The notes: generated by a model from the letters alone, not told the origin. A stretch of 64,000 nt of DNA from an uncultured bacterium (GCA_964525605.1 CAZGKT010000012.1:7771-71770), one strand, 5' to 3'; shown: positions 30,172-62,781, counted from the stretch's first letter. A program made the numbers and translations.

Positions 30172-30956
30172 GTCATTCTCCCAGGGAGGCGGTTCGAGCA
30201 GGCCCCGCGTTCCCGCGATCCATCGTACATACTAATCCTAACCAGGTAAAACCCCCGGGTTTAATGATTTTCACCCCCGAGTAGCGGTTTCCTGAATTCC
30301 CTTTGGATATATGAAAATGATAAGGGAGGACGTCCATTATTCGGGTTCAAGCTCGAAGTGATGTTTGGATTGAAGGATGATCAGAGGAGCCAATTCGCGT
30401 AGGTGCTAAAGTTTCTGGGTAGCGGATCTCCCGTTTCGGGAGCCCCCCCACTCAGCAAGTGGATCCATCCCCACAACCATTGTTCCCCATGGCATCCGCA
30501 AGATCGCGATGATTGACAGCCGTCTCCCTGCCTTTGCGGTATCGCCACGTTCACGTCGGATCGGGGAGATGCGCTCCGGGGCCATGAGGGTGGCCGAACG
30601 GGTCACCTGCCAAAAGATGTTGGAGGCTTGGGCCCCGTTGATCAAGGTCACTCGGCCATGAGGGGTTTCGAAATACCTTCCAAAACGATAAAAAAACCAC
30701 CATCGACAAGTTTGTTTGGCAAAAAAAATCAAAATGATCCTTCGAACTCTCAATTTGATTTTAAGGAGTGTTTTGAAAAACAAGCCTCTACGAGTTTCGG
30801 TCAAGCGTCGGGAACCCCAGGCTCAGAAAAGACCCCATCCCTCCTTGGGACGGGTTTGATTTTTCACACGCCTGCTTCACGAAATTCTCCGCGACGTCGC
30901 GTCTTGGCATTGAATCCTTCCGTTAGGTTTTTCGTATCCCATCCATTCTTTTCCCC

Positions 30957-33900
30957 ATGAAACACGGCTTATTTCTTGCTCTCGTTCATAGGGTGAAACC
31001 TCCCCAGATCATCCGGAAACTCGCCAACCTTCGCCGCCACTTCCCCTTCCGCTTTCCCGCCTCCTTCCTCGTTTCCCGGCCCACGGAGGCTCCCATCCGC
31101 TCCGAGCTTTTCAGCACCGAACGGTTCGACCAGCACGCCCGCTCGCTGGCGGCGGCGCAAACCCTCACCGACGACCCCAAAGCCGGAGCCCAGCTCTTTC
31201 CCCGGCTCCGCGAAAACGAAAATATCCTCGGGGAGGCCTTCCGCTACCTCACCGGCGAGGTCCAGAAAAAGAAACCCATCAACCCCGCCGGCGAGTGGCT
31301 TTTGGATTCCTACTACGTGGTGGAGGAACAGCTCCGCGACATCAAGCGGTTTCTGCCCCACGACTTCTACAACGAGCTCCCGAAACTTTCCGATGGTTTC
31401 TTGAAGGGCTACCCCCGTGTCTACGGCCTGGCCTGGGCTTACGTGGCCCATACGGACAGCCGATTCGACCCCGAATCCCTCATTCATTTCGTGCGTTCTT
31501 ACCAGCAGGTGGAGCCCCTGACCATCGGGGAACTCTGGGCCCTGGCCATCACGCTTCGGGTCGTGATGGTCGACAACCTGCGCCGCATCGCCGTATACCT
31601 CGTCACCTCCCAGGAGGCGCGCCAGGACGCGGACGCCTTCGTGGACGAGCTGTTAGGGCTCATCGAGGAATCCTCGCTTTCCAGCCGCCCCACGGCCGCC
31701 AAACTCCAGCGCCAATCCGTCCATCCGGCCTACCTGGTCCAGCTCATCCAGCGCCTGCGCTACCAGGACCCCCGGGGAACGCCCGCGGTGGACTGGCTGA
31801 ACGAAAAACTTGCCTTCGAAAAAACCACCGCCGAGGAAATGGTCACCTCCGTCCACAGCCTCCAGGCCGCCAACAACTCCACGGTGCGAAACATCATCAC
31901 CAGCTTCCGCAACATGACGACCTTCGACTGGCAGGATTTTTTCGAGTCCGTCAGCCTGGTCCAGGAGATCCTTGCCCGGCACCCCCTTTATTCCCAAATG
32001 GATTTCAAGACCCGCAACTCCTACCGCACCGCCGTTGAGGAACTGGCCAAGGGATCGGGTAAAAGCGAATTAGAAATCGCGCAGCTAGCCCTCCAAAGGG
32101 CGGCCGAAGGCGCGGACCACCAGGGTTTTTCAGCCCGGATGGGCGATCCCGGCTATTCCCTCTTCGACGAGGGCCGCCGGGCCTTTGAGAAGAAAATCGG
32201 ATTCCAGGTCCCGTTGAAAAAACGTCTCCGCCGTTTTTGCACCGACTACCCGGCCCTCACCTACATCGGCAACATTCTCTTCATGGCCACGGTCATCCTC
32301 TGGATCGCGGCGCTGATGAACCCCCACCTGCCCCAGGCCGAAAGGTTTCTTCTCTTGTTTTTGGGCCTCTTCCCCGCCGGGGACCTGGCCGTCGGCTGGG
32401 TCAACCATTTCGTCACCGGCATGGTGCCGCCCCGCCATCTCGCGCGCCTGGAGTTCTTGGCGGGCCCCACCCCGGAGTTCCGGACCTTCGTGGTGGTTCC
32501 CACCCTGCTGGAAAAGGAATCGAACATTCCCGAACAGTTGGAAAAACTGGAAGTCCATTACCTTTCCAACGCCGACGGGGAAGTCTATTACGCCCTGCTG
32601 ACGGACTTTCCCGATTCTTCCGTGGAAATTTCGCCGGAGGATGAAAAAAAACTCAACCTCGCCGTCCAGCTAACCGCCGAGCTGAACCAACGCCACGGAC
32701 CCGCAGCCGGTGGAGCTTCCCGTTTTTTCCTCTGCCACCGCAAAAGGCTTTGGAACCCGCTGGAAGGAAAGTGGATGGGCTGGGAACGAAAGAGGGGGAA
32801 GCTTCACGAATTCAATAGGCTTTTGCGGGGAGCCCAGGATACGAGCTTCCTGCGTCCCGATGGCTCCGTTCTCACTGTCCCTTCCGGGGTCCGTTACGTC
32901 ATCACCCTGGATGCCGACACCAAGCTTTCCCCCGGCGTGGTCAACCACCTGGTGGGCATCCTGGCCCATCCGCTCAACCAGGCAAGGCTGGACCCCGTCC
33001 GCCAAAAGGTCGTGGAAGGCTACGGCATCCTCCAGCCCCGGGTCACGGCTTTCCTTCCAGCCCAGGACGAAAAATCCATCTTCCAAAAACTCTTTTCAGG
33101 CGATTGCTGCATCGACCCCTACGCCTCGGCCGTTTCGGATGTGTACCAGGACCTCTTCGGCGAGGGCAGTTTCACCGGCAAGGGCATCTACGACGTGGAC
33201 GCGGTGGAACAATCCCTGAAAGGGCGGATCAGCGAAAACCGCCTCCTGAGCCACGACCTCTTCGAGGGCTGTTTCGCCCGTTGTGGCTACGCCAGCGACC
33301 TGGAATTCTTCGAGGAATTCCCCTCCCACGCCGAAACCTCCACCCTGCGCAACCACCGCTGGATCAGGGGCGATTGGCAGCTCTTGCCCTGGATCTTCGG
33401 CCGGGAAGGCAACTCGCTCTCCACCCTTTCCCGTTGGAAAATGGCCGACAACCTGCGCCGAAGCCTCTCCCCCATCGGCACCGTCTGCCTTCTCATCGGG
33501 GCCTTCTGCCTGCCTCAGGTCTACCAGCCCGGCTGGGTAGGCTTGGCCTTGTTAGGGATAGCCCTTCCTTCTTATATACCCTTCTTCAAGGACCTGGTCC
33601 TGTGGCGCCGCCCCCTCCATTGGAGGGACCATTTGGGCGAAATTACACGGGATTTCGTCCTCGGGAGCGGTCAGTTCCTCGTCAATCTGGTTCTGGTGGC
33701 CCACCGTGCCTGGATGCACCTTGACGCCATCCTCCGCACCCTCTGGCGTCTGTTCGTTAGCCACCGCAACCTCCTTGAATGGGTCACCGCCGCCCAGGCC
33801 AACTCTAACTCTGCCCTTAGCCTCTCTCATTTCCTTCGAAGGATGAAGGGTTCGATCTTCATCGCGTGTTTCGCGGCGGCCTTAACGGCCCTGTTCAACC

Positions 33901-36900
33901 CGGCCTCCCTGCCCCTCTGCCTTCCTTTCGTCCTTCTCTGGCTTTGCGCGCCCTGGTTCGCCCAGGCCATCAGTACCCCCGAACCCAAGCGGGAAAGCCT
34001 ACCCTTGACCGCCGATGAAACCAGTGAACTGCGGCTCCATGCCCGGCGCGTCTGGGCTTTCTTCAGCCACTTCGCCGTGAAGGAGGATCATTTCCTCCCG
34101 CCCGATAATTTCCAGGAAGACCCCCTCCCCGTCGTGGCGCACCGGGGTTCCCCGACCAATTTCGGCCTCTACCTTCTCTCCGTCGTCACCGCCCATGATT
34201 TCGGCTGGATCGGCCTCACCGAAATGACCCGAAAACTGGAAGCGGCCCTGAAAAGCCTCAAAGACATGCAGCGATTCCGGGGCCATTTTTATAACTGGAT
34301 CGACACCCAAACCCTTCTGCCCCTGGAACCCCGTTACATCTCATCGGTGGACAGCGGAAACCTGGCCGGCCATCTCTTGACCCTTTCCCAATCCTGCAGG
34401 GATCTGGCCCACCAGCCGCTCTTTCCCGATTCCATCATTGAGGGAATCCAGGACACGGTGTCCCTCCTTAAAAAATCGGCGCAGGCCCTTCCCCTTCACG
34501 CTTTCTCCTCCGCCACCCCCTTGAGCCAGCTTCAAAAGGAAATCGCCAACTTCGACAGCCAGCTTATTCGGGAGGAACATTCCCGCACCCATTCCGAATG
34601 GGCCTCCTACTGGACCCAGCTTTCCCTCCAGGCCGAAACCCTCAAGGATGCCGCCCATGCCTTCTCCGCCGGCCAGCGCGGGGAGGAAATATTCGAAATG
34701 ACGGCTTGGGCAGACCGCGTCGCCGACGATGTCCAAAGCCATACCCAGGATTTCCAACACTTCTTCCCCTGGGCCCTGGGCCGTTCGGCCCTGGATCATT
34801 CAAACCTTCCTACACTAGAAGCCGATTCTCCGGTGATCCGCGAATTCCAATCATCGCTCGGTAAACTTCTCTCCTCCGGCATGACCCCCGCCGAAGTACC
34901 AGGCCTTTGCGAACAGGCACTCGCTTCCATTGAGGCGAAACGCCAGGTCCGCGACAGCCCTCCCCTTTCCGAGTCCGAGGAACTTTATTTCGACCAGGTG
35001 GGCGCGGCATTAACCCTCGCCGCCCAAAATGGCCGGGAGATTTTGCGAAGGTTGGAGGAGGTAGCTACCGATTCCCGGACGATCTTCAATGAGATGGATT
35101 TCAGCTTTTTGCTGAATCCCCAGAAGAAGCTTTTCTCCATCGGCTATCGGATTGCCGATAGCCGTTCGGCTGACGGCCATTCGACCGATGGACAGTTGGA
35201 AGAGGGCTGTTACGACCTTTTGGCCTCCGAAGCCCGCCTCACCAGCTATGTGGCCATCATCAAAAAAGACGTTCCCGTTTCCCATTGGTTCAGGTTGGGC
35301 CGGGGGCTGGTGGCGGATGAGGGCAAGGCGATGCTGATGAGCTGGGCCGGGTCTATGTTCGAGTACCTCATGCCTTCCCTCGTCATGACCACGCCCGGCG
35401 GAAGCCTTTTGGACCAGACCTGTCGGCGGGTGGTGGAACGGCAGATGGATTACGGGAATTTACGGGGTTCGCCCTGGGGCGTATCGGAAGCGGGATATAA
35501 CGCCCGGGACCTGGACCTGAATTACCAGTATTCCACCTTCGGTGTGCCCGGCCTGGGGTTGAAGCGGGGTTTGGCTAAGGACCTCGTCATCGCGCCCTAT
35601 GCCACGGCTCTCGCCGCCATGTTGGAACCCCGAAAGGCCCTTTTTAATTTCCAGAAATTGGAACAACTGGGCGCCCGGGGCTTGTACGGGTTTTACGAAT
35701 CGCTGGATTACACCCCGACGAGGCTTCGGGAAAACGAGAAATTCGCCCTAGTGAAGTCCTATATGGCCCACCACCAGGGCATGTCGCTCATTGCCTTTTC
35801 CAACGTGGTTAATTCCGGCCTCATGCGCCGCCGCTTCCACATGGACCCCTTGGTCCAGGCGGGCGAGCTTTTGTTGCAAGAAAAGACCCCCAGGAATCTG
35901 GGGGCGGCGCGCGACCAGAAGGAAGAGGTGGAAATCCAGGTCATCCAGGTGCCGATCCCCTCCATCCTTCGCGATATCCGCTCGCTCCACCACGCCGTCC
36001 CTAGTTCCCACCTGCTCTCCAACGGCCGTTACGCCGTCATGATCACGGCCGCCGGATCGGGCTATAGCCGCTGGAAAAACCGCGCCGTCACCCGCTGGCG
36101 GGAAGACGTCACCCGCGACCCCTACGGCAGTTTCCTTTACCTGAGGGATCTCAAGTCGGGTGGGGTCTGGTCGGCGGCCTACCAGCCGGTCTTGACCGAA
36201 CCCCTGCAGTACCACGTGCTGTTTTCGGAAGACCGGGCCAAGATCTCGCGCGTGGACCATGGGATCTCCACCGACCTGGAAATTCTCGTTTCGGCGGAAG
36301 ACGACGCCGAGCTCCGCCGCCTCACCCTCACCAACCCCGGGGGCGTCGAAAGGGAAATCGAGGTCACTTCTTATTCGGAAGTGGTGCTGACCGACCCCGC
36401 CGCCGATTTGGCCCATCCGGCCTTTTCCAACCTCTTCATTGAGACCCGTTTCATCCCGGGTCTCGCCGCCCTCACGGCCAGGCGGCGCCCCCGCTCTTCC
36501 GGCGAGGAACCGGTCTTCATGGCCCAGGTGCTTTCCGTGGGAAGCGAAACCTTCGGGGAAATCGAGTACGAAACCGACCGGGCGAAATTCATCGGCCGGG
36601 GCCGCACACCCCGCACCGCCTCCTCGGTCTTGGACGGCCTGCCCCTTTCCCTTTCCACCGGCGCGGTGCTGGACCCCATCCTGTCTTTAAGGGTCAAGGT
36701 GCGCTTAGCTCCCGGCACCTCCGCCCAGGTTTGTTTCACCACCCTGGTGACGGGCTCCGAAACCGAAATGCTTTCAATGGCCGAAAAATACCATAATTCC
36801 TCCGCCTTCGAGCGTTCCTCCGCCCTCGTCTGGACCCAATCCACCGCCAAGCTTCATCACTTGGGGATCGAACTGGAAGAAGCCCAGCTTTTCCAGAAAC

Positions 36901-39863
36901 TCGCAAACCGAATCCTTTTTTCCGACCCCCTCATGCGCCCCACGAGCGAGATCTTGAAAAAGAACCGCATGAACGTGACGGGCCTCTGGTCCCGCGGCAT
37001 CTCGGGCGACCTGCCCATTCTTTTGGTCCGGGTGGACGACCTGGAAGACCAGGCCCTGATCCGCCAGCTTTTGCGCGCCCACGAATACTGGCGCATGAAA
37101 CGGCTATCGATGGATATCGTGCTGCTGAACGAGAAGGGGCCTTCTTACGTGCAAGATTTACAGACAGCCCTGGAAGGCATGGTGCGGGGCAGTGAAGCGA
37201 CATCCCTCGGCAACCCCGACCTGCCTCCCGGGCGCATTTTCGTCTTGCGCGACGACCTGCTGGACGTGCGGGAAAAGAACCTTTTGCTGGCCGTAGCCCG
37301 GGCCATCCTCAACAGCCGCCAGGGCACCCTCGCCGAGCAGGTGATGCGGGTACGAAAATTCGACAGTTTCAAGTACGTTCCCGCGAAGAAAATGGAAGAG
37401 ACGGAAAAATTCCGCCTCGCGGAAAGGGTCGAGCCCCCGGTTTCGCTTTTTCCCCTGGACTTCTTCAACGGCATCGGCGGCTTCACCCCCGATGGGCGGG
37501 AATACGCCATCGTGCTGGAAAAGGGCCAACGCACCCCCGCCCCCTGGATCAACGTGATCTCCAATGGCGAATTCGGGTTTCAGGTTTCCGAATCGGGCGC
37601 GGGCTACACCTGGGCCTTGAACAGCCGGGAAAACCAGATTTCCCCCTGGTCCAACGACCCCGTGATAGACCCTCCCGGCGAGGCCTTTTATATCCAAGAC
37701 TCGGAGGATCTCTGGTCCCCCACCGCCTCCCCCATCAGGCTGGAAGATGCCACCTATACCGCCCGGCACGGAGCGGGTTACAGCGTTTTTGGCAACGAAT
37801 CCAACGGTATCCGAAGCACCCTCACCCAGTTCGTGGACGCCAAAGAACCGGTCAAGATTTCCCGGTTAGTCCTGCAAAACCGATCCCACCGCTCGAGGGA
37901 GCTTTCCATCACCGGTTACGTGGAATGGGTGCTCGGTTTTAACCGCACCCAAACCTCGCATTCTCTCGTGACCGAAATGGACGCCGAAACCGGCGCGCTT
38001 TTCGCCATGAACCCGCTCAACCCAGTTTACGGAAGCCGGGTTTCATTTTTCGACCTCAAGGGCACCCAGACCGCCTTCACCTCTGACCGGTCCGAATTTA
38101 TCGGAAGAAACGGAACACTGGAACGCCCCGCCGGGCTTTTGCGGAAGGAACCCTTAAGCGGCACCACCGGAGCCGGGTTTGATCCCTGCGGGGTTTTGCA
38201 GGCCCCCCTCACCCTGGCTCCGGGCGAGAAAAAGGAACTGGTGTTTCTTTTAGGGCAGGCCGAAAGCCAGGACCAGGCCCGCCGCTTGGTAAAAACCTTC
38301 AGGCAGAGGGGCGTGGAGGAGAGCCTACAGGCCGTTAACCAATTCTGGGATAACTTTTTGGGCAAGATCCAGGTGCAAACCCCCGACCCCGCGATGGACC
38401 TCATGCTCAACCGCTGGCTTCAAACCCAAACCCTGGCCTGCCGGTTTTGGGCCCGCTCGGCCTTTTACCAGGCCGGAGGCGCCTATGGCTTTAGGGACCA
38501 ACTTCAGGATGTGATGGCCATCGTGACGACCGACCCCACCCTGGCCCGGTCGCATATCCTGGTGGCCGCCGGCCGGCAGTTCCCCGAAGGCGATGTCCAG
38601 CATTGGTGGCACCCCTTGTCCGGGCGGGGGGTGAGGTCCCGCGTTTCGGATGACCGCCTCTGGCTTCCCTATGTGGTGCTCCATTACCTGAAGGTGACGG
38701 AGGATCAGGCCCTGCTGGAAGAACTGGTTCCCTTCCTTCAAGCCCCGCTTCTTCGCCCCGACCAGGAAGATTCCTATTTCGAACCCACGGTTTCCCGCGA
38801 ACCTGCCCTGGACCTTTACGAACATTGCGCGAGAGCGGTCGATATCAGCCTTCAAACCGGTGTCCACGGCCTGCCCCTGATGGGAAGTGGGGATTGGAAT
38901 GACGGCATGAACCGAGTCGGCCATGAGGGAAAGGGTGAAAGTGTTTGGCTGGCCTGGTTTCTCCATGAAATCCTGACAGAAATGGCCCCAGTCGCCCAGT
39001 CGAAGGGCGATGAAAAGCGGGCGAAAACTTGGGCCGAACACGCTGACAAGCTCAAACAGGCCCTGGAAACGAACGCCTGGGACGGGACCTGGTACCGCCG
39101 GGCCTTTTTCGACGACGGTTCCCCCCTGGGGTCCAGGGAAAACACCGAATGCCAGATCGATTCCATCGCCCAGAGCTGGGCGGTATTATCCGGCGCCGCG
39201 GACCCGGCCCGAGCGCTCCAGGCCATGAAATCCGTGGAAGAGCGCCTCATCCTCAAGGACGATGACCTGGTTTTGATCTTCACCCCGCCCTTCGACCAAA
39301 CACCGAAAGACCCCGGCTATATCAAGGGTTATCTGCCCGGCGTGAGAGAAAATGGGGGCCAATACACCCACGCCGCCGTCTGGTGTCTCTTGGCCTACGC
39401 GAAGATGGGAATGGGCAAGCAGGCCTTCGAGTTGTTTTCGATGTTGAACCCTATCAACCACGCCCTGACCCGAACCCATGTGGCGACCTACAAAACCGAA
39501 CCCTATGTGATGGTGGCGGATATTTACGGCAAAGCCCCCCACGTGGGCCGGGGCGGCTGGACCTGGTACACCGGTTCGGCCGGGTGGATGTATAGGGCCG
39601 GAGTCGAATTTATCTTGGGAATACAGCAGAGAGGCAAAAAACTACATTTCGATCCATGCATACCGAAGGAATGGTCTGGATTTAAGGTTACTTATCAGAA
39701 TCTAAGTAGTGTTTATGACATTCAATTCGAAAACCCTAATCATGTTTCCAAAGGGGTTCAACGTATTGAATGTGATGGAGTTGTTGTTCAGACGAAGGAT
39801 GCGGCGATCGACTTGAAGGATGATCGGAAGACCCATTTCGTGAAAGTTATTTTAGGCCCGTAA
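30957..39863 (+). CDS. ndvB: Cyclic beta-1,2-glucan synthase (GT84 glycosyltransferase + GH94 phosphorylase-like domain), 2968 aa
   Basis: Multi-TM N-region. GT84 core with YVITLDADTKL (DxD). NHRWIRGDWQLLPWI. C-terminal GH94 blocks GFRDQLQD, WTWYTGSAGWMYRAG. Overall size and order as NdvB/ChvB/Cgs. Last ~85 codons (from ~39605) are visibly AT-richer than the rest. Confidence 0.9.
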   Translation: MKHGLFLALVHRVKPPQIIRKLANLRRHFPFRFPASFLVSRPTEAPIRSELFSTERFDQHARSLAAAQTLTDDPKAGAQLFPRLRENENILGEAFRYLTGEVQKKKPINPAGEWLLDSYYVVEEQLRDIKRFLPHDFYNELPKLSDGFLKGYPRVYGLAWAYVAHTDSRFDPESLIHFVRSYQQVEPLTIGELWALAITLRVVMVDNLRRIAVYLVTSQEARQDADAFVDELLGLIEESSLSSRPTAAKLQRQSVHPAYLVQLIQRLRYQDPRGTPAVDWLNEKLAFEKTTAEEMVTSVHSLQAANNSTVRNIITSFRNMTTFDWQDFFESVSLVQEILARHPLYSQMDFKTRNSYRTAVEELAKGSGKSELEIAQLALQRAAEGADHQGFSARMGDPGYSLFDEGRRAFEKKIGFQVPLKKRLRRFCTDYPALTYIGNILFMATVILWIAALMNPHLPQAERFLLLFLGLFPAGDLAVGWVNHFVTGMVPPRHLARLEFLAGPTPEFRTFVVVPTLLEKESNIPEQLEKLEVHYLSNADGEVYYALLTDFPDSSVEISPEDEKKLNLAVQLTAELNQRHGPAAGGASRFFLCHRKRLWNPLEGKWMGWERKRGKLHEFNRLLRGAQDTSFLRPDGSVLTVPSGVRYVITLDADTKLSPGVVNHLVGILAHPLNQARLDPVRQKVVEGYGILQPRVTAFLPAQDEKSIFQKLFSGDCCIDPYASAVSDVYQDLFGEGSFTGKGIYDVDAVEQSLKGRISENRLLSHDLFEGCFARCGYASDLEFFEEFPSHAETSTLRNHRWIRGDWQLLPWIFGREGNSLSTLSRWKMADNLRRSLSPIGTVCLLIGAFCLPQVYQPGWVGLALLGIALPSYIPFFKDLVLWRRPLHWRDHLGEITRDFVLGSGQFLVNLVLVAHRAWMHLDAILRTLWRLFVSHRNLLEWVTAAQANSNSALSLSHFLRRMKGSIFIACFAAALTALFNPASLPLCLPFVLLWLCAPWFAQAISTPEPKRESLPLTADETSELRLHARRVWAFFSHFAVKEDHFLPPDNFQEDPLPVVAHRGSPTNFGLYLLSVVTAHDFGWIGLTEMTRKLEAALKSLKDMQRFRGHFYNWIDTQTLLPLEPRYISSVDSGNLAGHLLTLSQSCRDLAHQPLFPDSIIEGIQDTVSLLKKSAQALPLHAFSSATPLSQLQKEIANFDSQLIREEHSRTHSEWASYWTQLSLQAETLKDAAHAFSAGQRGEEIFEMTAWADRVADDVQSHTQDFQHFFPWALGRSALDHSNLPTLEADSPVIREFQSSLGKLLSSGMTPAEVPGLCEQALASIEAKRQVRDSPPLSESEELYFDQVGAALTLAAQNGREILRRLEEVATDSRTIFNEMDFSFLLNPQKKLFSIGYRIADSRSADGHSTDGQLEEGCYDLLASEARLTSYVAIIKKDVPVSHWFRLGRGLVADEGKAMLMSWAGSMFEYLMPSLVMTTPGGSLLDQTCRRVVERQMDYGNLRGSPWGVSEAGYNARDLDLNYQYSTFGVPGLGLKRGLAKDLVIAPYATALAAMLEPRKALFNFQKLEQLGARGLYGFYESLDYTPTRLRENEKFALVKSYMAHHQGMSLIAFSNVVNSGLMRRRFHMDPLVQAGELLLQEKTPRNLGAARDQKEEVEIQVIQVPIPSILRDIRSLHHAVPSSHLLSNGRYAVMITAAGSGYSRWKNRAVTRWREDVTRDPYGSFLYLRDLKSGGVWSAAYQPVLTEPLQYHVLFSEDRAKISRVDHGISTDLEILVSAEDDAELRRLTLTNPGGVEREIEVTSYSEVVLTDPAADLAHPAFSNLFIETRFIPGLAALTARRRPRSSGEEPVFMAQVLSVGSETFGEIEYETDRAKFIGRGRTPRTASSVLDGLPLSLSTGAVLDPILSLRVKVRLAPGTSAQVCFTTLVTGSETEMLSMAEKYHNSSAFERSSALVWTQSTAKLHHLGIELEEAQLFQKLANRILFSDPLMRPTSEILKKNRMNVTGLWSRGISGDLPILLVRVDDLEDQALIRQLLRAHEYWRMKRLSMDIVLLNEKGPSYVQDLQTALEGMVRGSEATSLGNPDLPPGRIFVLRDDLLDVREKNLLLAVARAILNSRQGTLAEQVMRVRKFDSFKYVPAKKMEETEKFRLAERVEPPVSLFPLDFFNGIGGFTPDGREYAIVLEKGQRTPAPWINVISNGEFGFQVSESGAGYTWALNSRENQISPWSNDPVIDPPGEAFYIQDSEDLWSPTASPIRLEDATYTARHGAGYSVFGNESNGIRSTLTQFVDAKEPVKISRLVLQNRSHRSRELSITGYVEWVLGFNRTQTSHSLVTEMDAETGALFAMNPLNPVYGSRVSFFDLKGTQTAFTSDRSEFIGRNGTLERPAGLLRKEPLSGTTGAGFDPCGVLQAPLTLAPGEKKELVFLLGQAESQDQARRLVKTFRQRGVEESLQAVNQFWDNFLGKIQVQTPDPAMDLMLNRWLQTQTLACRFWARSAFYQAGGAYGFRDQLQDVMAIVTTDPTLARSHILVAAGRQFPEGDVQHWWHPLSGRGVRSRVSDDRLWLPYVVLHYLKVTEDQALLEELVPFLQAPLLRPDQEDSYFEPTVSREPALDLYEHCARAVDISLQTGVHGLPLMGSGDWNDGMNRVGHEGKGESVWLAWFLHEILTEMAPVAQSKGDEKRAKTWAEHADKLKQALETNAWDGTWYRRAFFDDGSPLGSRENTECQIDSIAQSWAVLSGAADPARALQAMKSVEERLILKDDDLVLIFTPPFDQTPKDPGYIKGYLPGVRENGGQYTHAAVWCLLAYAKMGMGKQAFELFSMLNPINHALTRTHVATYKTEPYVMVADIYGKAPHVGRGGWTWYTGSAGWMYRAGVEFILGIQQRGKKLHFDPCIPKEWSGFKVTYQNLSSVYDIQFENPNHVSKGVQRIECDGVVVQTKDAAIDLKDDRKTHFVKVILGP

Positions 39864-39890
39864 AACCAATGTTTTACAAAGTGGATCGAA
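39790..39890. repeat. ~100-bp segment (cgs 3' end + 25 nt downstream) duplicated at ~60985..61085
   Basis: ...acgaaggatgcggcgatcgacttgaaggatgatcggaagacccatttcgtgaaagttattttaggcccgtaa...tttacaaagtggat vs ...atgaaggatgcgacgattgaattgaagaatgaccagaagaccaaattcttgaaagtcatcttaggcttataa...ttcacaaagtggat (~75% identity). Confidence 0.7.
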
Positions 39891-40084: not shown

Positions 40085-40678
40085 ATGACCGGGACTGGCA
40101 TAAGGAGCCGTGGTTTGTTCACTAAATACAAAGCCATTCAAAAACCCTGGATGGATGAAAAAGAAATTGCTCTCATTCGGAAGTACCTGCAACCCGGGCA
40201 CATCATGTTGGAATGGGGAAGCGGGGGAAGCACCTTCTATTTCTCCCAATTCGTCCAAAAATATTACAGTATCGAATCCGATCAAAAATGGGGAAAAATC
40301 ATCAGGCGCCGGGTTTTGTGGAGTGAGTTTTGGGTGAAAGTCCTCCGGGGACGGAAAGAACCCAAGATTATCTATCACCCGGTCAAGATGCCTGTCCGGC
40401 CCAGGACGATTCCCACCAGATATGAAGACTATCGGGATTTTATTGAGCGGGTCGATCACTTGGGGGTGAAACGGTTCGATGTGGTTTTAATCGACGGGCG
40501 GGGACGGGACCATTGCGCGAAAAAAATTCTCGACTACATCGATGAAAAATCCGTCGTTTTTATCCACGATTACTTCATGCCGGGCCGGGAATATTATTCG
40601 GAGGTTCTGCAGTGGTATGACATCTTGGAAGCCGTTACGGATACTCCCCAGACTTTGGTGGCCTTGCGCAAAAAATAA
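40085..40678 (+). CDS. Small Rossmann-fold SAM-dependent methyltransferase-like protein
   Basis: HIMLEWGSGGSTFYF (motif I-like E-x-G-x-G-G-S-T), acidic SIESD (motif II-like), VVLIDGRG. Sits in the lower-GC stretch directly after cgs. Alternative start at 40151. Confidence 0.5.
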   Translation: MTGTGIRSRGLFTKYKAIQKPWMDEKEIALIRKYLQPGHIMLEWGSGGSTFYFSQFVQKYYSIESDQKWGKIIRRRVLWSEFWVKVLRGRKEPKIIYHPVKMPVRPRTIPTRYEDYRDFIERVDHLGVKRFDVVLIDGRGRDHCAKKILDYIDEKSVVFIHDYFMPGREYYSEVLQWYDILEAVTDTPQTLVALRKK

Positions 40679-40786
40679 ACTTGGGAAGGATGCGGCTCCC
40701 AAACCGGATCGGGGCGTGGTGTCTGATCCCCTTTTCCGCGCCTTTTCCCCTTTGAGGCCCGTTCCCGGCTCTTATACTGTCCCTCT

Positions 40787-58650: not shown

Positions 58651-59006
58651 TATATAGGATTTGTTGAGGATTATTCAAAAAGCAAGGTACATGCCAAACC
58701 CAAAACACCTTAAATCCTTTAATGGAGGTAAAAGCCAATCCGCAATCGATCAAATGGAGAAGGAGGGTCTAAATCCGGAATTAGTTGATGTAACCCTATT
58801 TTTTGTCGGTTCAACGATAAATGGGGTCAATGGATGGGGAGTGGGGTGAATAATTTCTTTTCAAATTTGACCCTGCTTGCGCGGTCCTATTTCACAAGTT
58901 TATTTCCCTTAAACGACGCCGGGTTCGATGGGGAGAGTGCATGGTTCGGAATTTCTTTTCCACCTGGGTCAAAGCAACCGGCCTCGAGAGTCTGGTTTTT
59001 CGCCCC

Positions 59007-60065
59007 TTAAGGCGTTTCCCAGACGTCGTTGAAGTTGGTTGGGTCCCAGCCGCCCAGGATCATCAACTCATTGTTGAACACCACCGAGGAAAGGTTGTTG
59101 CGGGCCGTGAAAGCCGCGCGGGAGGCGGCTTGGGTCCAATGGGCCCCATCCGAGGAGTACCAGGCGTCGTTGAGGTCTCCCCCCGTGCCGATACCCCCGA
59201 CCACCCACATCAGGTTGTCGTAAACCGCGCTGGCGAAATAAGCGCGGGGGCTGAACTGGGACACGGACCCGGAGGCGGAATAGGTCAAAACCTTGGACCA
59301 GGTCGCCCCGTCGGGCGAAGACCACACATCGTTGGAATAGCCGGGGCCGCTCGCGGTTCCGCCGATCACCCATATCAAGTTGTTGTAAACCAGCCCTCCC
59401 TGCCCCTCCCTGGCTCCGAAGGCCGCGCTGGTCGTGGCCGCGGTCCAGGTTACCCCGTTGGAAGAATACCAGGCGTCGGCATTGTAGGTACCGGCAATCA
59501 CCCACATGAGATTTTTGAAAACCACGGCGGAGGCGTAGTCCCTTTGGGAGAACTGCGTGGTGCCGCCGGAAGCGTTGTTGGTGACGGCCATGGTCCAGGT
59601 GGCCCCATCCGGCGAGGACCAGACGTCGTTGAGCCAACTGCCGTTGTAACCCCCGAAAACCCACATCAGGTTGTCGTAAACCACCGAGGCGTGGCCTTGG
59701 CGTTGACCGAACTGGGTGGTGGCGGGAGAGGAGTTGTTGGCCAACTGCTGGGTCCAAACCGAACCGTTGGTGGAATACCACACGTCGTTGAGGTCGCCGC
59801 TGTTGCCGCTCCCGCCGATCACCCAGGCCCGGTTGTCGAACACCAGGGACGTTTGCGCATCGCGGACCGTGAAGCTGTTGGCGGCCCCGTTATCGATCTC
59901 AAACCACGCGGCGCCCGTGCTAGGGTTCATGGTCGCCGTGGGCGTAGCTTGGCCCGCGGGGGCGGTGGGCGATGCGGCCGGATTGTTCCCACAGGAAGCG
60001 CAGAAGAAACCCAGCCCTAACGCGAAAAATAAACCCGCCCAATATTTCTCGAATCCCCGGATCAT
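59007..60065 (-). CDS. Kelch-repeat beta-propeller lipoprotein
   Basis: Lipobox FFCASCG. Six repeats of the form (N)LMWV(I/F)GG...LNDVWSS(P/N)DG(A/V)TW. Confidence 0.75.
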   Translation of the reverse strand: MIRGFEKYWAGLFFALGLGFFCASCGNNPAASPTAPAGQATPTATMNPSTGAAWFEIDNGAANSFTVRDAQTSLVFDNRAWVIGGSGNSGDLNDVWYSTNGSVWTQQLANNSSPATTQFGQRQGHASVVYDNLMWVFGGYNGSWLNDVWSSPDGATWTMAVTNNASGGTTQFSQRDYASAVVFKNLMWVIAGTYNADAWYSSNGVTWTAATTSAAFGAREGQGGLVYNNLIWVIGGTASGPGYSNDVWSSPDGATWSKVLTYSASGSVSQFSPRAYFASAVYDNLMWVVGGIGTGGDLNDAWYSSDGAHWTQAASRAAFTARNNLSSVVFNNELMILGGWDPTNFNDVWETP

Positions 60066-60306
60066 AAAACACGCTCCCCGTGCCTATTTCCAACGTGGGC
60101 GTATTGTGAAGGAAGTTCCGGGAACTTTGAAAGGGCCGGGGGTGTTAAAAAAAGGTTAAGGCTTAACCCTACAAAAGCCAGGATCGATTGAGGTGAAGGA
60201 TGACCATAAAACCCCGGCAAGGGGCTAGGTTTTCGTACTCTTCTTCCCCAAAATAAACCCTTCAACCACCGCGCTTTTGATCGAAAGTACACCAAGGAGA
60301 GACCCC

Positions 60307-60975
60307 ATGGATGTGACCCAAGCTTTGAAAAGCCGATATACCTGCCGAGGCTTTAAACCAAACCCGGTGCCGAAAGAAACGCTGACTGAAATACTTGAGG
60401 CCGCCAACCGCGCGCCCTCCTGGGCCGATACCCAGCCTTGGGAAGTCTATGTCGCATCAGGCGATGCCTTGGAAAGGCTCCGCAAGGCCCATCTGGATAT
60501 TTTCGCCACGGGAGCCGCCCCCCACCCGGATCTTCCCGCCCCCGCCCAATGGCCCCCGGCCCTGAAAAAGCGCATGGATGACCTGTTGGCCCTTCATAAG
60601 AAGGAAGCCCAAGACCATCCCGAGCACAAGAACAACCCCGAAGCTTATCTGGTGCGCCAGATGAATTTCTTCAAAGCGCCCGTGGTGATTTACCTTTGCC
60701 TGGACCGCACGCTAAGCCCCTGGTCCATTTTCGATATGGGTTTTTATGCCCAAAGCCTGCTTCTCGCCGCCAAGGAAAGGGGTTTAGACACCGCCGGTTC
60801 CTACCGCTTGGTTTCGTATCCTGAACTGATCCGCAGTGAAATGGGGATTCCAGAGAACCTTTCGATCCTCTTCGGGATCGCCTTGGGCTACGCCACCGAA
60901 CATTCCCAAACCACAAGGTTCGAAAGCCCCCGAAGGCCCATCAAAGAGGTTGTGAAGTGGAAGGGGTTTGAGTGA
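60307..60975 (+). CDS. Nitroreductase-family FMN oxidoreductase
   Basis: MDVTQALKSRYTCRGFKPNPVPKETLTEILEAANRAPSWADTQPW (nitroreductase N-block). Track ORF from TTG 60277. Confidence 0.85.
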   Translation: MDVTQALKSRYTCRGFKPNPVPKETLTEILEAANRAPSWADTQPWEVYVASGDALERLRKAHLDIFATGAAPHPDLPAPAQWPPALKKRMDDLLALHKKEAQDHPEHKNNPEAYLVRQMNFFKAPVVIYLCLDRTLSPWSIFDMGFYAQSLLLAAKERGLDTAGSYRLVSYPELIRSEMGIPENLSILFGIALGYATEHSQTTRFESPRRPIKEVVKWKGFE

Positions 60976-60990
60976 AGGGCGGTCGTTCAA

Positions 60991-61062
60991 ATGAAGGATG
61001 CGACGATTGAATTGAAGAATGACCAGAAGACCAAATTCTTGAAAGTCATCTTAGGCTTATAA
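60991..61062 (+). pseudogene. Remnant duplicate of the last 23 codons of the cyclic-glucan synthase gene
   Basis: MKDATIELKNDQKTKFLKVILGL* vs cgs C-terminus TKDAAIDLKDDRKTHFVKVILGP*. Similarity continues past the stop (acaaagtggat). Starts the AT-rich islet. Confidence 0.6.
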
Positions 61063-61755
61063 ATCTACCGCTTCACAAAGTGGATAATGGTGGCCAGGCA
61101 CCTTTTTGCTCGGTTCTATTTTATGGCCAGGAGTTAAATAAATATTATTTCCTGGCGTAGAGATAAATTGAACAGGTTTATCTTTCATAGTTTTTTTATG
61201 GGGAATTACAGAACCAATTGATTTTTGACTTTCATCACCAGAAGCGCCTACTGATACAACCCCAAAATAATATTTTTTACCATTCTGCAAAACGCCAATG
61301 GTGATTTTACTTTTTTTAAATGGTTTTCTTATTCGTCTAGTAAAATTAATTCCATTGGTAGAGAAATACAGAACATATCCAATCGCATTTGGCATTGAAT
61401 CCCACGTTAAATTTGCAGATCCATTTTCTGCTTCAATATTGAAATGTGTTGGTGGTATTGGTTTTTTTTCTCGATTATGTGGTTTCGCGACCCCGTGGAC
61501 ACTTGGTGTACTTTCTATAGCTTCGTCTAATTCAATGTGCCGTCCACCCGGGACTGCTTTTTTAAAATATTCTTCTTGGGACCATGTTGGTGTTGGAGTA
61601 AGTTCATCAGAGAAAGCTGATTTTGGTAAAATTCCAAAATATTCAATAAGCAAAAAAATAAAAGCCAGAAATGATAAAAACCAGTTTTTGCAAAAAAGGG
61701 ATAGTGCCGAAAACGGGAAATATGCTTCTTTGCGATGAATGAATTTTTTTTTCAT
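61057..61755 (-). CDS. Membrane-anchored FN3-like-domain protein (AT-rich islet paralog A)
   Basis: N-terminal hydrophobic anchor FLSFLAFIFLLIEYFGIL. FN3-like PTHFNIEAENGSANLTWDSMPNAIGYVLYFSTNG...YYFGVVSVGASG. Confidence 0.6.
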   Translation of the reverse strand: MKKKFIHRKEAYFPFSALSLFCKNWFLSFLAFIFLLIEYFGILPKSAFSDELTPTPTWSQEEYFKKAVPGGRHIELDEAIESTPSVHGVAKPHNREKKPIPPTHFNIEAENGSANLTWDSMPNAIGYVLYFSTNGINFTRRIRKPFKKSKITIGVLQNGKKYYFGVVSVGASGDESQKSIGSVIPHKKTMKDKPVQFISTPGNNIYLTPGHKIEPSKKVPGHHYPLCEAVDL

Positions 61756-61787
61756 AAAAACCTCTGAAATCCCGTACTAAAGATATT

Positions 61788-61825
61788 GTTGCATACCATC
61801 CTTTTTAAAACACCCATGTGCAGGA
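61788..61825. repeat. 38-bp perfect direct repeat, copy 1 (gttgcataccatcctttttaaaacacccatgtgcagga)
   Basis: Identical 38-mer at ~62533..62570. Flanking 20 nt also similar (tttttcaacgt / tttttcaatgt). Confidence 0.8.
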
Positions 61826-62011
61826 ATATTGTGTAAATTTTTCAACGTAATGCTAAACCATGATATTGGTCATAGGGGGAGCTGGGGTTGAAAGGGGTAT
61901 TGTGTGCCAATATTTAGACGCAATTGGTTCCCCGTAAAGGGGGGGCTTATTCACCCCAAACCCAAATTTTTTTCCGCTAATAAGTTTAAATTCTGTTAAG
62001 GGGTGTTATAG

Positions 62012-62524
62012 ATGAAAAATCAAAAATTCGTAGTTGTGTTCAAATTTTTATTTTTTTTTCCTATTTTTGTCTGGTTCACTTTTATAAATGTAAGCCATGC
62101 CCAATTGATTGAGTCAACACCATCAGTGGACAACCCTCCTGAAAGTCAACACGATTACGGCCAATGGTTAGATAAACAAGCAAAAAACCAAAAAGAAATC
62201 GGAACACCTGCAGCCCTCTACAAACTTTCGCCAATGCCAGATTCTCCAACGAATTTAAAAATTGAGGCTGGCAATGGTTTAGCACTTTTAAAATGGGACA
62301 AGATGCCTAATGCGATCGCTTATCTTATTTATATTTCTAATGATGGGAAAACTTTTAAAAAGCGATTTAAAAAACCAGTTAAAACAACCAAAATTGAAAT
62401 TGGATTATTGGAAAACGATCAAACTTATTACTTCGGGATTACATCAATCGCGCATTATGGGAAAGAAAGCAAAATGGCTGTCCAAACTGTCACGCCCAGA
62501 AAAGGTTTAAGGTTTAAAGAGTAA
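62012..62524 (+). CDS. Secreted FN3-like-domain protein (AT-rich islet paralog B)
   Basis: Signal peptide FLFFFPIFVWFTFINVSHA. Shares IESTPSV and FN3-like block PTNLKIEAGNGLALLKWDKMPNAIAYLIYISNDG...YYFGITSIAHYG with 61057..61755. Confidence 0.6.
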   Translation: MKNQKFVVVFKFLFFFPIFVWFTFINVSHAQLIESTPSVDNPPESQHDYGQWLDKQAKNQKEIGTPAALYKLSPMPDSPTNLKIEAGNGLALLKWDKMPNAIAYLIYISNDGKTFKKRFKKPVKTTKIEIGLLENDQTYYFGITSIAHYGKESKMAVQTVTPRKGLRFKE

Positions 62525-62532
62525 GATTTTCC

Positions 62533-62570
62533 GTTGCATACCATCCTTTTTAAAACACCCATGTGCAGGA
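62533..62570. repeat. 38-bp perfect direct repeat, copy 2
   Basis: Same 38-mer as 61788..61825, 8 nt after stop of 62012..62524. Confidence 0.8.
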
Positions 62571-62647
62571 GCCCGTATTTATTAGTATTTTTCAATGTTC
62601 CGCCGAATTCGTCTGGATTTGAATAAGCTCAAATGCAGTGTGATCGG

Positions 62648-62722
62648 GGTCGGTCATCAATTATTAATATACTAAAATTCGTTCATCCTTCGTGAATGGA
62701 GTCGGTCATTATTTATTAATAT
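62648..62722. repeat. Two 23-nt direct repeats GGTCGGTCAT(C/T)A(A/T)TTATTAATAT separated by ~30 nt
   Basis: Copies at ~62648..62670 and ~62700..62722 (20/23 identical), each containing palindromic TATTAATA. In the convergent gap between FN3 gene B and the TM-cyclase gene. Confidence 0.6.
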
Positions 62723-62781
62723 TTCCCAAATCCAAATCCGCCCTTATTCGCCGAAACTTCAAGCAAAATCCCACTGTTCCT

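What the first reader, a model, noticed from the sequence alone, without database searches (positions are those of the whole stretch)
39605..39890. Compositional break in the last ~85 codons of cgs, and a second diverged copy of its terminal ~100 bp 21 kb downstream
Seen in sequence:
- From ~39605 the cgs reading frame switches from GC-rich codons to AT-rich ones (...ggcaaaaaactacatttcgatccatgcataccgaaggaatggtctggatttaaggttacttatcag...).
- The AT-rich character continues through the methyltransferase-like gene to ~40700.
- The final 23 codons plus ~25 nt of 3' flank recur at ~60985-61085 at ~75% identity (TKDAAIDLKDDRKTHFVKVILGP* vs MKDATIELKNDQKTKFLKVILGL*, then ...acaaagtggat in both).
- The second copy sits exactly where a second AT-rich islet begins, right after the nitroreductase stop.

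Inference: the 3' end of cgs has been replaced by, or recombined with, sequence from an AT-rich element that carries its own copy of this segment. This is the kind of scar left by elements that integrate into a gene's 3' end and supply a substitute terminus. No integrase is present, so the event is probably old or the element is decayed.
Basis: seen in the sequence. Interest (0 to 1): 0.5.

Follow-up and report, generated by a model that had tools for sequence, protein, structure and literature searches.

The report
Swapped, repeated tail of cgs gene
The last ~87 codons of a giant cyclic-glucan synthase gene are an AT-rich piece with its own evolutionary history, and truncated copies of its end sit at the borders of small inserted gene cassettes, which most likely records repeated DNA integration and recombination at this gene's end.

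Summary
Both observations hold. GC3 of cgs (30957-39863) steps from 0.76 to 0.39 at ~39600. That is 5.4 sd beyond 76 distant homologues. Positions 39780-39886 recur at 60978-61085 (78%, E 5e-18).

The reading "one AT-rich element between two att-like copies" does not fit:
- The 21 kb between the copies has host-like codon composition and no integrase.
- The same break occurs in a close relative (L102) whose downstream flank is GC-rich.

New evidence:
- Window and L102 differ at 31% of synonymous sites before the break and 78% after it, so the tail is a recombination mosaic.
- The window holds two more degenerate stubs (30343-30467, 60164-60232). Another contig (L087) holds three, bracketing a ParE toxin-antitoxin module.
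- The four well-preserved copies end at the same point, CAAAGTGGAT, 23-26 nt past the stop.
- The copies diverged like coding sequence (dN/dS 0.13-0.4).
- Two of them continue into a shared hairpin motif (M), after which cargo varies between strains.
- In L087 an SNF2 gene's 3' end is duplicated the same way around a PIN module.

Best reading (about 0.45): serial Campbell-type insertion of small cassettes that carry their own copy of the tail, plus allelic tail exchange, with an unknown recombinase acting in trans. Interest is moderate.

The parts
30957..39863 (+). cgs, cyclic beta-1,2-glucan synthase (2968 aa; GH94 supersandwich and catalytic domains)
   Evidence: ORF list. Pfam PF06165, PF17167 and PF10091. 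Homologues are named cyclic beta-1,2-glucan synthetase by JGI.
39600..39863 (+). AT-rich tail of cgs (last ~87 codons, the C-terminal domain after the GH94 catalytic domain). A recombination mosaic.
   Evidence: GC3 change-point at 39600. pS 0.31 before versus 0.775 after the break against L102. Site-pattern shift.
39780..39886 (+). X1: the repeated unit in its functional copy (last 27-28 codons, stop codon and 23 nt of flank ending in CAAAGTGGAT)
   Evidence: nhmmer E 8e-33.
60978..61085 (+). Starts 2 nt after the nitroreductase stop codon.
   Evidence: 78% identical to X1 over 104 nt. nhmmer E 3.5e-31. Third-position-biased differences.
61077..61107 (+). Motif M (AAAGTGGATAATGGTGGCCAGGCACCTTTTT), which overlaps the end of X3. 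Single copy in the window.
   Evidence: Exact match to L087 10285-10315, and an inverted copy at L087 11398-11428. Contigs L096 and L098 end inside it.
30343..30467 (+). X0: degenerate cgs-tail stub upstream of the cgs start (core 30355-30403, in frame LKDDQRSQFA*; CAAGTGGAT at about 30457)
   Evidence: nhmmer E 6.8e-5. 24/28 identity 30370-30397 versus 39813-39840.
60164..60232 (+). X2: degenerate cgs-tail stub between the Kelch-repeat gene and the nitroreductase gene (core 60184-60214, in frame IEVKDDHKT)
   Evidence: nhmmer E 1e-3.. Weak.
40085..40678 (+). MTase-like gene immediately downstream of cgs. Absent at this position in relatives.
   Evidence: Weak PF13578 hit. GC3 0.60. Downstream of cgs differs in L101, L102 and L092. 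Homologue in a glycan context.
60307..60975 (+). Nitroreductase gene, bracketed by stubs X2 and X3. Host-like composition.
   Evidence: PF00881. GC3 0.66.
61057..62780 (.). AT-rich islet (GC 0.33-0.41) after X3 and M. It holds two divergent paralogous FN3-like secreted proteins (61057-61755 on the minus strand, 62012-62524 on the plus strand).
61788..61825 (+). Left copy of a perfect 38-nt direct repeat that bounds the 745-nt unit holding ORF 62012-62524
   Evidence: family D7.
62533..62570 (+). Right copy of the 38-nt direct repeat
   Evidence: family D7.

Best explanation
The last ~87 codons of cgs, plus about 25 nt of 3' flank, behave as a separable module at the edge of a strain-variable, AT-rich accessory region. 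Two processes act on it.

(1) Allelic exchange. Tails from a diverged, lower-GC pool are recombined onto the gene body, with the left junction at the domain boundary (~39600). This produces the codon-composition step.

(2) Serial Campbell-type insertion. Small DNA segments (toxin-antitoxin modules, single secreted-protein genes, a nitroreductase gene) each carry their own truncated copy of the tail and flank. Every insertion adds one more direct copy of the tail. These copies are the stubs X0, X2 and X3 in the window and A, A' and B in contig L087. The crossover is either homologous, within the tail, or site-specific at or next to the hairpin motif M that follows the common end point CAAAGTGGAT. 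The recombinase is not encoded locally and would act in trans.

Shown: the break, the mosaic, the stub family, their common right boundary, their coding-type divergence, and strain-variable cargo after M.

Inferred: the circular intermediates, the crossover site and the enzyme.
For: - GC3 step at 39600. The same step occurs in L102.
- Window versus L102: pS 0.31 upstream and 0.775 in the tail. The tail value equals that between the window and the much more distant L101 (0.75-0.77).
- Stub B in L087 is 95% identical to L102 in the body part but only 74-77% in the tail. Site patterns shift between body and tail, p 0.017.
- There are four well-preserved copies (X1, X3, A, B) and three degenerate ones (X0, X2, A'), all in one orientation within each contig.
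- The four well-preserved copies lose similarity at the same point after CAAAGTGGAT, whereas their left ends differ (equivalent to 39421, 39708 and 39780).
- Pairwise dN/dS is 0.13-0.40 with third-position bias, and there are no frameshifts over 27-57 codons. So each stub diverged while it was part of a working cgs gene and was placed where it is later.
- In L087 stubs A and B bracket a ParE/antitoxin module. The 3' end of an unrelated SNF2 gene (17 codons, 5 synonymous and 2 non-synonymous changes) plus its flank is duplicated in the same way around a PIN/antitoxin module. Both arrays end at inward-facing copies of M.
- Cargo differs between L087 and L094/L105 immediately after the M hairpin.
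- DNA downstream of cgs is non-syntenic in all four relatives.
- Established knowledge: integrative elements that target a gene's 3' end supply a substitute end and leave the displaced end as a direct repeat, as with e14 and the 163-bp icd' (PMC6379469). Repeated integration builds tandem arrays (PMC7192596).
Against: - No integrase, transposase or other recombinase is found in the window between or beside the copies, or near the stubs in L087.
- The 21 kb between X1 and X3 is compositionally native.
- Stub X0 lies upstream of cgs.
- No empty site and no circular junction was observed.
- Only two genomic contexts and about five tail alleles are available. The metagenome scan found nothing beyond these two populations.
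- X0, X2 and A' are short and weak (E 7e-5, 1e-3 and 0.17).
- The tail dips in GC3 in every relative, so part of the AT-richness could be an intrinsic constraint.
- It is not known whether L087 belongs to the same genome as the window.
Confidence: 0.45

Rival explanations
1. Gene turnover without any attachment function. The lineage repeatedly gained extra cgs copies (paralogues or xenologues) and lost them by deletion. The stubs are ordinary pseudogene remains. The shared right boundary only reflects a conserved native terminator region beyond which later insertions differ.
For: - dN/dS below 1 shows that every stub once belonged to a functional gene.
- Stub B reaches 440 nt upstream and has an internal 176-nt deletion, and stub A has lost its stop codon. 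Both are typical of pseudogene decay.
- X0 lies upstream of cgs, as a remnant of a predecessor gene would.
- No recombinase was found.
Against: - It needs at least five independent losses of a 9-kb gene, each sparing the last 28 or more codons and the flank.
- Three stubs lie within 1.3 kb in L087, interleaved with a TA module.
- The same architecture occurs at the SNF2 gene, which is intact.
- Cargo polymorphism begins exactly after M.
Confidence: 0.2
2. The compositional step is intrinsic rather than a recombination scar. The C-terminal domain of this cgs clade is kept AT-rich at synonymous sites by selection or a local mutational regime, for example an embedded signal, or relaxed codon selection and less GC-biased conversion next to a variable region. 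On this view the repeats are an unrelated matter.
For: - The dip occurs at the same place in L102, which has a GC-rich flank. It also occurs in L101 and, more narrowly, in L092.
- Distant homologues show a small average dip (-0.04).
- The break coincides with a protein-domain boundary.
- Intergenic DNA in this genome is AT-rich.
Against: - A constraint on synonymous sites should lower synonymous divergence. Instead pS rises from 0.31 to 0.775 at the break.
- Branch patterns change between body and tail.
- The window's drop is a 5.4-sd outlier.
Confidence: 0.2
3. A single integrated element spans 39.9-61 kb, with attL formed by the new cgs end and attR formed by the displaced old end, and its integrase has since been lost.
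For: - X1 and X3 are direct repeats of the gene end, 21.2 kb apart.
- The cgs end is compositionally foreign.
Against: - Genes from 40787 to 60975 have host-like GC3 (0.59-0.81) and typical chromosomal functions: serpin, STAND NTPase, alginate lyase, adenylate cyclase, Kelch and TPR proteins.
- The displaced copy, X3, is not a GC-rich 'native' end.
- There are additional stubs at 30.3 and 60.2 kb.
- The AT-rich tract starts 175 nt upstream of the repeat.
- L102 has the same tail without the element.
Confidence: 0.08
4. Metagenome assembly artefact. The repeat caused chimeric joins.
For: - The window is a metagenomic contig.
- Two contigs end inside M.
Against: Both junctions recur at 99.1-100% identity in independent assemblies from several samples and sources (JGI, ENA, Logan).
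Confidence: 0.02

Closest known systems
Integrative elements that target the 3' end of a protein-coding gene and supply a substitute end (e14 and phage 21 at icd in E. coli), and tandem arrays of such elements
   Same: - Direct, diverged repeats of the target gene's last codons plus flank.
- The functional copy carries a compositionally foreign end.
- The displaced copies are pseudogene stubs.
- Several stubs occur in series, as in tandem arrays (PMC6379469; PMC7192596).
   Different: - No integrase is present in or beside any unit.
- Units are very small (0.25-1.1 kb cassettes, TA modules), or, for the 21-kb interval, compositionally native.
- One stub lies upstream of the gene.
- The sharp common boundary is the right (distal) end rather than a crossover core at the proximal end.
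- The foreign tract in cgs starts 175 nt before the repeat.
Hitch-hiking mosaicism of a conserved gene next to a hypervariable locus (gnd beside the O-antigen rfb cluster in E. coli; from my own knowledge of Nelson and Selander 1994)
   Same: - Divergence is sharply elevated only in the part of the gene adjacent to a strain-variable region.
- Body and end of the gene have discordant histories.
- The imported DNA has lower GC.
   Different: Hitch-hiking explains the mosaic tail but not the duplicated stubs or their common end point. Here the breakpoint recurs at the same codon in two lineages.
Integron cassette arrays and pdif (Xer) modules
   Same: - Arrays of small, AT-rich, often promoterless or TA-bearing units, each bounded by a repeated structured site.
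- One unit in L087 is bounded by inverted copies of a 31-nt site, as pdif modules are.
- The recombinase acts in trans.
   Different: - The repeated boundary is a fragment of a host gene.
- M has no attC R''/R' boxes and no dif-like XerC/XerD arms.
- No IntI was found.
Tn7-like insertion downstream of a conserved gene (attTn7 at glmS; from my own knowledge)
   Same: The junction lies at a fixed short distance (23-26 nt) beyond the stop codon of a large conserved gene.
   Different: - No tnsABCD-like genes.
- No TGT...ACA ends and no 5-bp target duplication.
- Tn7 does not duplicate the gene end.

Membership tests
Integrative genetic element at a gene's 3' end (e14/icd type) | Direct repeats of the target gene's 3' end at both borders (attL and attR) | tested here: met
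   X1 39780-39886 and X3 60978-61085, 78% identical, same strand.
Integrative genetic element at a gene's 3' end (e14/icd type) | Integrase (tyrosine or serine recombinase) gene inside the element, usually next to an att site | tested here: not met
   Pfam scans of all sizeable ORFs from 39.9 to 63.8 kb and from 13.8 to 30.8 kb found no recombinase. None is present near the stubs in L087.
Integrative genetic element at a gene's 3' end (e14/icd type) | Intervening DNA is foreign and absent from relatives that have an uninterrupted site | tested here: inconclusive
   The 21-kb interval is compositionally native. Relatives L101, L102 and L092 lack it downstream of cgs, but none shows the precise empty site.
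Integrative genetic element at a gene's 3' end (e14/icd type) | Identical crossover core shared by attL and attR | tested here: inconclusive
   The longest identities between X1 and X3 are 10 nt (GAAGGATGCG) and 11 nt (ACAAAGTGGAT). No attP or attB is available for comparison.
Integron cassette array | attC sites with RYYYAAC and GTTRRRY boxes, and an intI gene or a CALIN context | tested here: not met
   No such boxes were seen on reading X, M and their flanks. No IntI in the Pfam scans.
Diversity-generating retroelement (TR/VR pair at a gene's 3' end) | Mismatches confined to template adenines, and a reverse transcriptase nearby | tested here: not met
   Differences between X1 and X3 are of all types (T/C, G/A, C/T, C/A, G/T and others). 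No RT was found in the Pfam scans.
Polymorphic-toxin orphan arrays (Rhs or CdiA type) | AT-rich variable C-terminal toxin tip not homologous between alleles, followed by an immunity gene. Orphans consist of the core end plus a new tip. | tested here: not met
   The tail aligns to the C-terminal domain of all 80 GH94/cgs homologues through to the last residue. The stubs share the same end rather than alternative tips.
Tn7-like attachment-site insertion | tnsA/B/C plus a target selector, TGT...ACA ends, and a 5-bp target-site duplication | tested here: not met
   None of these genes is present. The junction sequences lack these ends.
Recombination mosaic beside a variable locus (gnd-rfb type) | Excess synonymous divergence and a discordant history confined to the gene end facing the variable region | tested here: met
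   pS 0.31 versus 0.775, Fisher p 0.001. Site-pattern shift p 0.017. Non-syntenic downstream DNA in four relatives.
Known structured RNA or mobile-element RNA (Rfam) | Match to a curated covariance model | tested here: not met
   No Rfam hit at gathering threshold in the window or in L087.

The most novel reading that the evidence does not exclude
Motif M and its hairpin mark a so far undescribed cassette-integration platform. Small AT-rich cassettes (TA modules, single secreted-protein genes) would be inserted by a trans-acting recombinase at a conserved palindromic site 25-45 nt downstream of host genes (cgs, SNF2). Each cassette would carry a functional-looking copy of the host gene's 3' end, so that arrays of 'gene-end plus M' repeats build up. 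This would be an integron-like or pdif-like system that uses host gene termini as part of its site.
Probability: 0.12. Interest if true: 0.75.

Novelty: new variant of a known kind. Interest (0 to 1): 0.45.

Why it matters
- If the stubs really are integration footprints, the 3' end of cgs is a new protein-coding integration hot spot in an uncultured peat bacterium.
- The footprints would come from very small, integrase-less cassettes that bring their own copy of the target's end. This extends the e14/icd paradigm to TA-sized units.
- It also shows that a codon-composition step inside a gene, together with displaced 3' stubs, can be used to find such sites in metagenomes.
- The shared hairpin at two unrelated genes hints at a common site-specific mechanism that would be worth testing.
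- If instead the stubs are only gene-turnover debris, the finding is an ordinary, though well-documented, case of mosaic gene ends beside variable DNA.

Tried and rejected
- **DGR (TR/VR).** Rejected: mismatches are not adenine-specific and there is no RT (Pfam scans).
- **Rhs/CdiA-type toxin tip.** Rejected: the tail is the conserved GH94 C-terminal domain.
- **Integron attC, dif/Xer site, Tn7 end for M.** None fits on reading the sequence. No Rfam family matches.
- **M as a dispersed repeat in the window.** Only one copy, even allowing 3 mismatches or using a profile.
- **Native GC-rich displaced end at 40685-40765.** A 12-mer (GAAGGATGCGGC) lies 6 nt after the MTase stop. Its score is at background level in a whole-window scan and the translation is not cgs-like.
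- **Extension of copy 2 into the nitroreductase C-terminus.** The tblastn alignment RFESPRRPIKEV versus QFENPNHVSKGV is judged coincidental.
- **Link between X0, the Ice_binding-like fragment and the L101 downstream region.** Only a family motif is shared.
- **Synteny of the MTase, the 309-aa ORF, the islet ORFs and other neighbours with 80 distant cgs loci.** None found.
- **Viral contig scans for M and X.** Nothing, or one chance hit (L097).
- **Metagenome scan for the X end.** Only the two known populations.
- **Taxon of the organism.** Could not be established.

Full report
**What is there**

The window is a metagenomic contig from a peat-soil bacterium. Near-identical contigs occur in several JGI, ENA and Logan assemblies. 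Its taxon could not be established. The best species-level hits to cgs are only 56-63% identical in protein and are scattered over many phyla.

ORF 30957-39863 encodes a 2968-aa cyclic beta-1,2-glucan synthase with GH94 domains. The Pfam catalytic domain ends at residue 2888.

**Checking the composition break**

- GC falls from about 0.60 to 0.41-0.45 between 39550 and 40150. The fall is in third codon positions: 0.7-0.8 before and 0.28-0.45 after.
- A likelihood change-point lies at codon 2882, which is window 39600 (LLR 25.6; GC3 0.76 versus 0.39). No other 85-codon window of the gene is below 0.58.
- The drop is 5.4 sd outside the distribution in 76 distant homologues (mean -0.04).
- The trough is 39606-39779 (GC3 0.29). 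The last 27 codons are less extreme (0.59). The MTase-like gene (GC3 0.60) is barely outside the host range of 0.59-0.81. The two ORFs of the islet at 61-62.8 kb are strongly foreign (0.22 and 0.31).

**Checking the repeat**

- 39783-39886 and 60982-61085 are 78% identical over 104 nt without gaps, E 5e-18.
- The repeat is in frame for 27-28 codons, shares the stop codon, and ends in an 11-nt identity, ACAAAGTGGAT.
- Copy 2 begins 2 nt after the nitroreductase stop codon, exactly where GC collapses.
- Independent contigs confirm both junctions.

Both observations are therefore confirmed.

**The repeat is a family**

A protein search with the 85-aa tail returned an 89-aa "protein", P0003. It is a cgs 3' stub with an internal deletion, on a 34-kb contig, L087. 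L087 holds the following stubs:

| Stub | L087 position | Relation to the window |
|---|---|---|
| A | 9109-9289 | 77% to window 39708-39886; stop codon mutated to CAA |
| B | 9981-10318 | 89.7% to 39421-39536, then a deletion, then 82% to 39713-39886 |
| A' | 9358-9397 | mini-stub |

A ParE/antitoxin module lies between A and B.

A profile built from the four good copies finds two further significant stubs in the window, both on the + strand and both intergenic:
- 30355-30403 (E 6.8e-5), 0.55 kb upstream of the cgs start.
- 60184-60214 (E 1e-3), just upstream of the nitroreductase gene.

The nitroreductase gene is thus bracketed by stubs X2 and X3.

**Shape of the family**

- In the multiple alignment, the four good copies stop resembling each other at the same position, right after CAAAGTGGAT and 23-26 nt past the stop codon. 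Their left ends differ, being equivalent to 39421, 39708 and 39780.
- Beyond that point, B and X3 share a further exact 21 nt, AATGGTGGCCAGGCACCTTTTT. I call the resulting 31-nt motif M. A has a collapsed version of it. The functional cgs copy continues with unrelated sequence.
- In L087, M is the 5' arm of a 66-nt imperfect hairpin (z -3.06). A 94%-complementary inverted copy lies 1.08 kb away, and the pair encloses a 247-aa lipoprotein gene.
- A strain variant (L094/L105) is identical to L087 up to the end of the hairpin and then carries different AT-rich cargo.
- Two contigs of the window population end inside M.

**The same architecture at a second gene**

On the other strand of L087, the last 17 codons and the flank of an intact SNF2 helicase gene are duplicated. 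The repeat is 104 nt at 78% identity, with 5 synonymous and 2 non-synonymous changes. The two copies bracket a PIN/antitoxin module, and each copy is followed by an M-like sequence. Two arrays therefore face each other across the lipoprotein gene: one built on cgs ends and one built on SNF2 ends.

**How the copies diverged**

Pairwise dN/dS among X1, X3, A and B is 0.13-0.40, with one pair at 0.66. Third positions change most, and there are no frameshifts. With about 20% nucleotide divergence, this means the copies diverged as parts of working cgs genes, in different strains or species. They were placed in their present, non-functional positions afterwards. They are not old duplicates that decayed where they sit.

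**Relatives**

A second protein search found closer cgs genes.

- **L102** is about 90% identical in nucleotides before the break. It shows the same GC3 step at the same codon (0.85 to 0.35), has a 22-aa loop insertion in the tail, and is followed by GC-rich, unrelated DNA with a convergent gene.
- **L101** is 71% identical over the whole gene and comes from a lower-GC genome. It dips to 0.3-0.5 in the tail and is followed by a different AT-rich islet of small ORFs, with no extra stubs or M within 10 kb.
- **L092** dips only over the codons for YEIQFENPNHVSKGVQRIE and has a GC-rich end.

Nothing downstream of cgs is shared among the four. The AT-rich tail is therefore a feature of the clade. 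It is not a private scar linked to this MTase or islet.

**The break is a recombination boundary**

- Between the window and L102, synonymous differences are pS 0.31 (dS 0.40) in the 139 codons before 39600. They are pS 0.775 (saturated) in the 87 codons after it. The Fisher test on third positions of identical amino acids gives p 0.001. dN only doubles.
- The tail value equals that between the window and L101 (0.75-0.77).
- In a three-way comparison, L102 has no unique changes in 116 nt of body but the most unique changes (20) in 148 nt of tail (p 0.017).
- Stub B is 95% identical to L102 in the body but 74% in the tail.

Tails are therefore exchanged independently of the gene body, and the junction lies at the domain boundary.

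**What does not fit a single integrated element**

- The 21 kb between X1 and X3 encodes a serpin, a STAND NTPase, an alginate lyase, adenylate cyclases, and TPR and Kelch proteins, all with host-like GC3. It has no integrase and no tRNA gene.
- The MTase-like gene has a 63% homologue located after a GT4 glycosyltransferase and next to a GH36 gene in another genome. It is probably a glycan-modifying enzyme rather than element cargo.
- A stub lies upstream of cgs.

**Most likely mechanism**

This part is inference. Small DNA circles that carry a truncated copy of a host gene's end (cgs or SNF2) plus M integrate by a single crossover. The crossover is either homologous, in the 100-450-nt gene fragment, or site-specific at M. 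Each event adds one more "gene-end plus M" repeat and one cassette.

Recombination with diverged donors also replaces the functional tail itself, importing lower-GC sequence. This is the logic of e14 at icd, where the prophage supplies the last codons and a 163-bp icd' stub remains (PMC6379469). It is also the logic of tandem arrays of integrative elements (PMC7192596). Here, however, the units are TA-sized and no local recombinase is present.

I put this at about 0.45. The rivals are:

| Rival | Confidence |
|---|---|
| Plain gene-turnover debris | 0.2 |
| An intrinsic AT-rich constraint for the break | 0.2 |
| The literal single-element model | 0.08 |
| Assembly artefact | 0.02 |

**Verdict**

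The finding is a new variant of a known kind: displaced 3' gene stubs and a mosaic gene end beside variable DNA. It has one unexplained component, motif M and the fixed end point. Interest is moderate.

Noticed in passing
window 61788-61825 and 62533-62570: A perfect 38-nt direct repeat bounds a 745-nt unit that contains ORF 62012-62524. It looks like a recent cassette-type insertion or duplication inside the AT-rich islet.
   Followed up: partly
window 61057-61755 (-) and 62012-62524 (+): The two divergently oriented islet ORFs are paralogues (41% identity over 112 aa, E 1e-29). Each has a signal-peptide-like N-terminus and a weak fn3-like domain. Their GC3 is 0.22 and 0.31.
   Followed up: yes
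L087 11415-11518 and 12293-12396: A 104-nt direct repeat (78%) duplicates the 3' end and flank of an intact SNF2 helicase gene. The two copies bracket a PIN/antitoxin module.
   Followed up: partly
L087 10285-10315 and 11398-11428: A 31-nt inverted repeat (94% complementary, motif M) encloses a 1.08-kb segment with a 247-aa lipoprotein-like ORF. The left copy is also the 5' arm of a local 66-nt hairpin.
   Followed up: partly
window 30406-30804 (-): A short ORF with a weak Ice_binding-like (PF11999) match. It is probably a gene fragment and lies between stub X0 and the cgs start.
   Followed up: partly
window 62640-62670 and 62692-62722: A tandem pair of 31-nt repeats (84%), GTGATCGGGGTCGGTCATCAATTATTAATAT, at the right edge of the islet, next to the 3' end of the adenylate cyclase gene.
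   Followed up: no
window 59000-59850: Several families of internal direct repeats with a period of about 150-160 nt. They lie inside the Kelch/beta-propeller gene (59007-60065, minus strand) and are ordinary blade repeats.
   Followed up: no
window 40685-40696: The 12-mer GAAGGATGCGGC, identical to 39794-39805 in the repeat, lies 6 nt after the MTase-like stop codon. It is at chance level in a whole-window scan.
   Followed up: yes
L101 2496-11323: The orthologous cgs of the related 473-kb contig is called as several consecutive ORFs (150, 205, 2099, 63 and 440 aa). This indicates frameshifts, either from pseudogenisation or from long-read assembly errors.
   Followed up: no
L102 595-680; protein P0009: Two relatives carry 22-24-aa insertions at the same loop of the cgs tail (after ...KVIYRHLSS and ...YQHG). 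This loop tolerates length variation.
   Followed up: no
L106 8766-10528 and L107 4269-6031: The closest homologue of the MTase-like gene (63%) follows a GT4 glycosyltransferase and lies near a GH36 alpha-galactosidase. The window also has a GH36 gene (17735-19924) and large GT4 genes upstream of cgs.
   Followed up: partly
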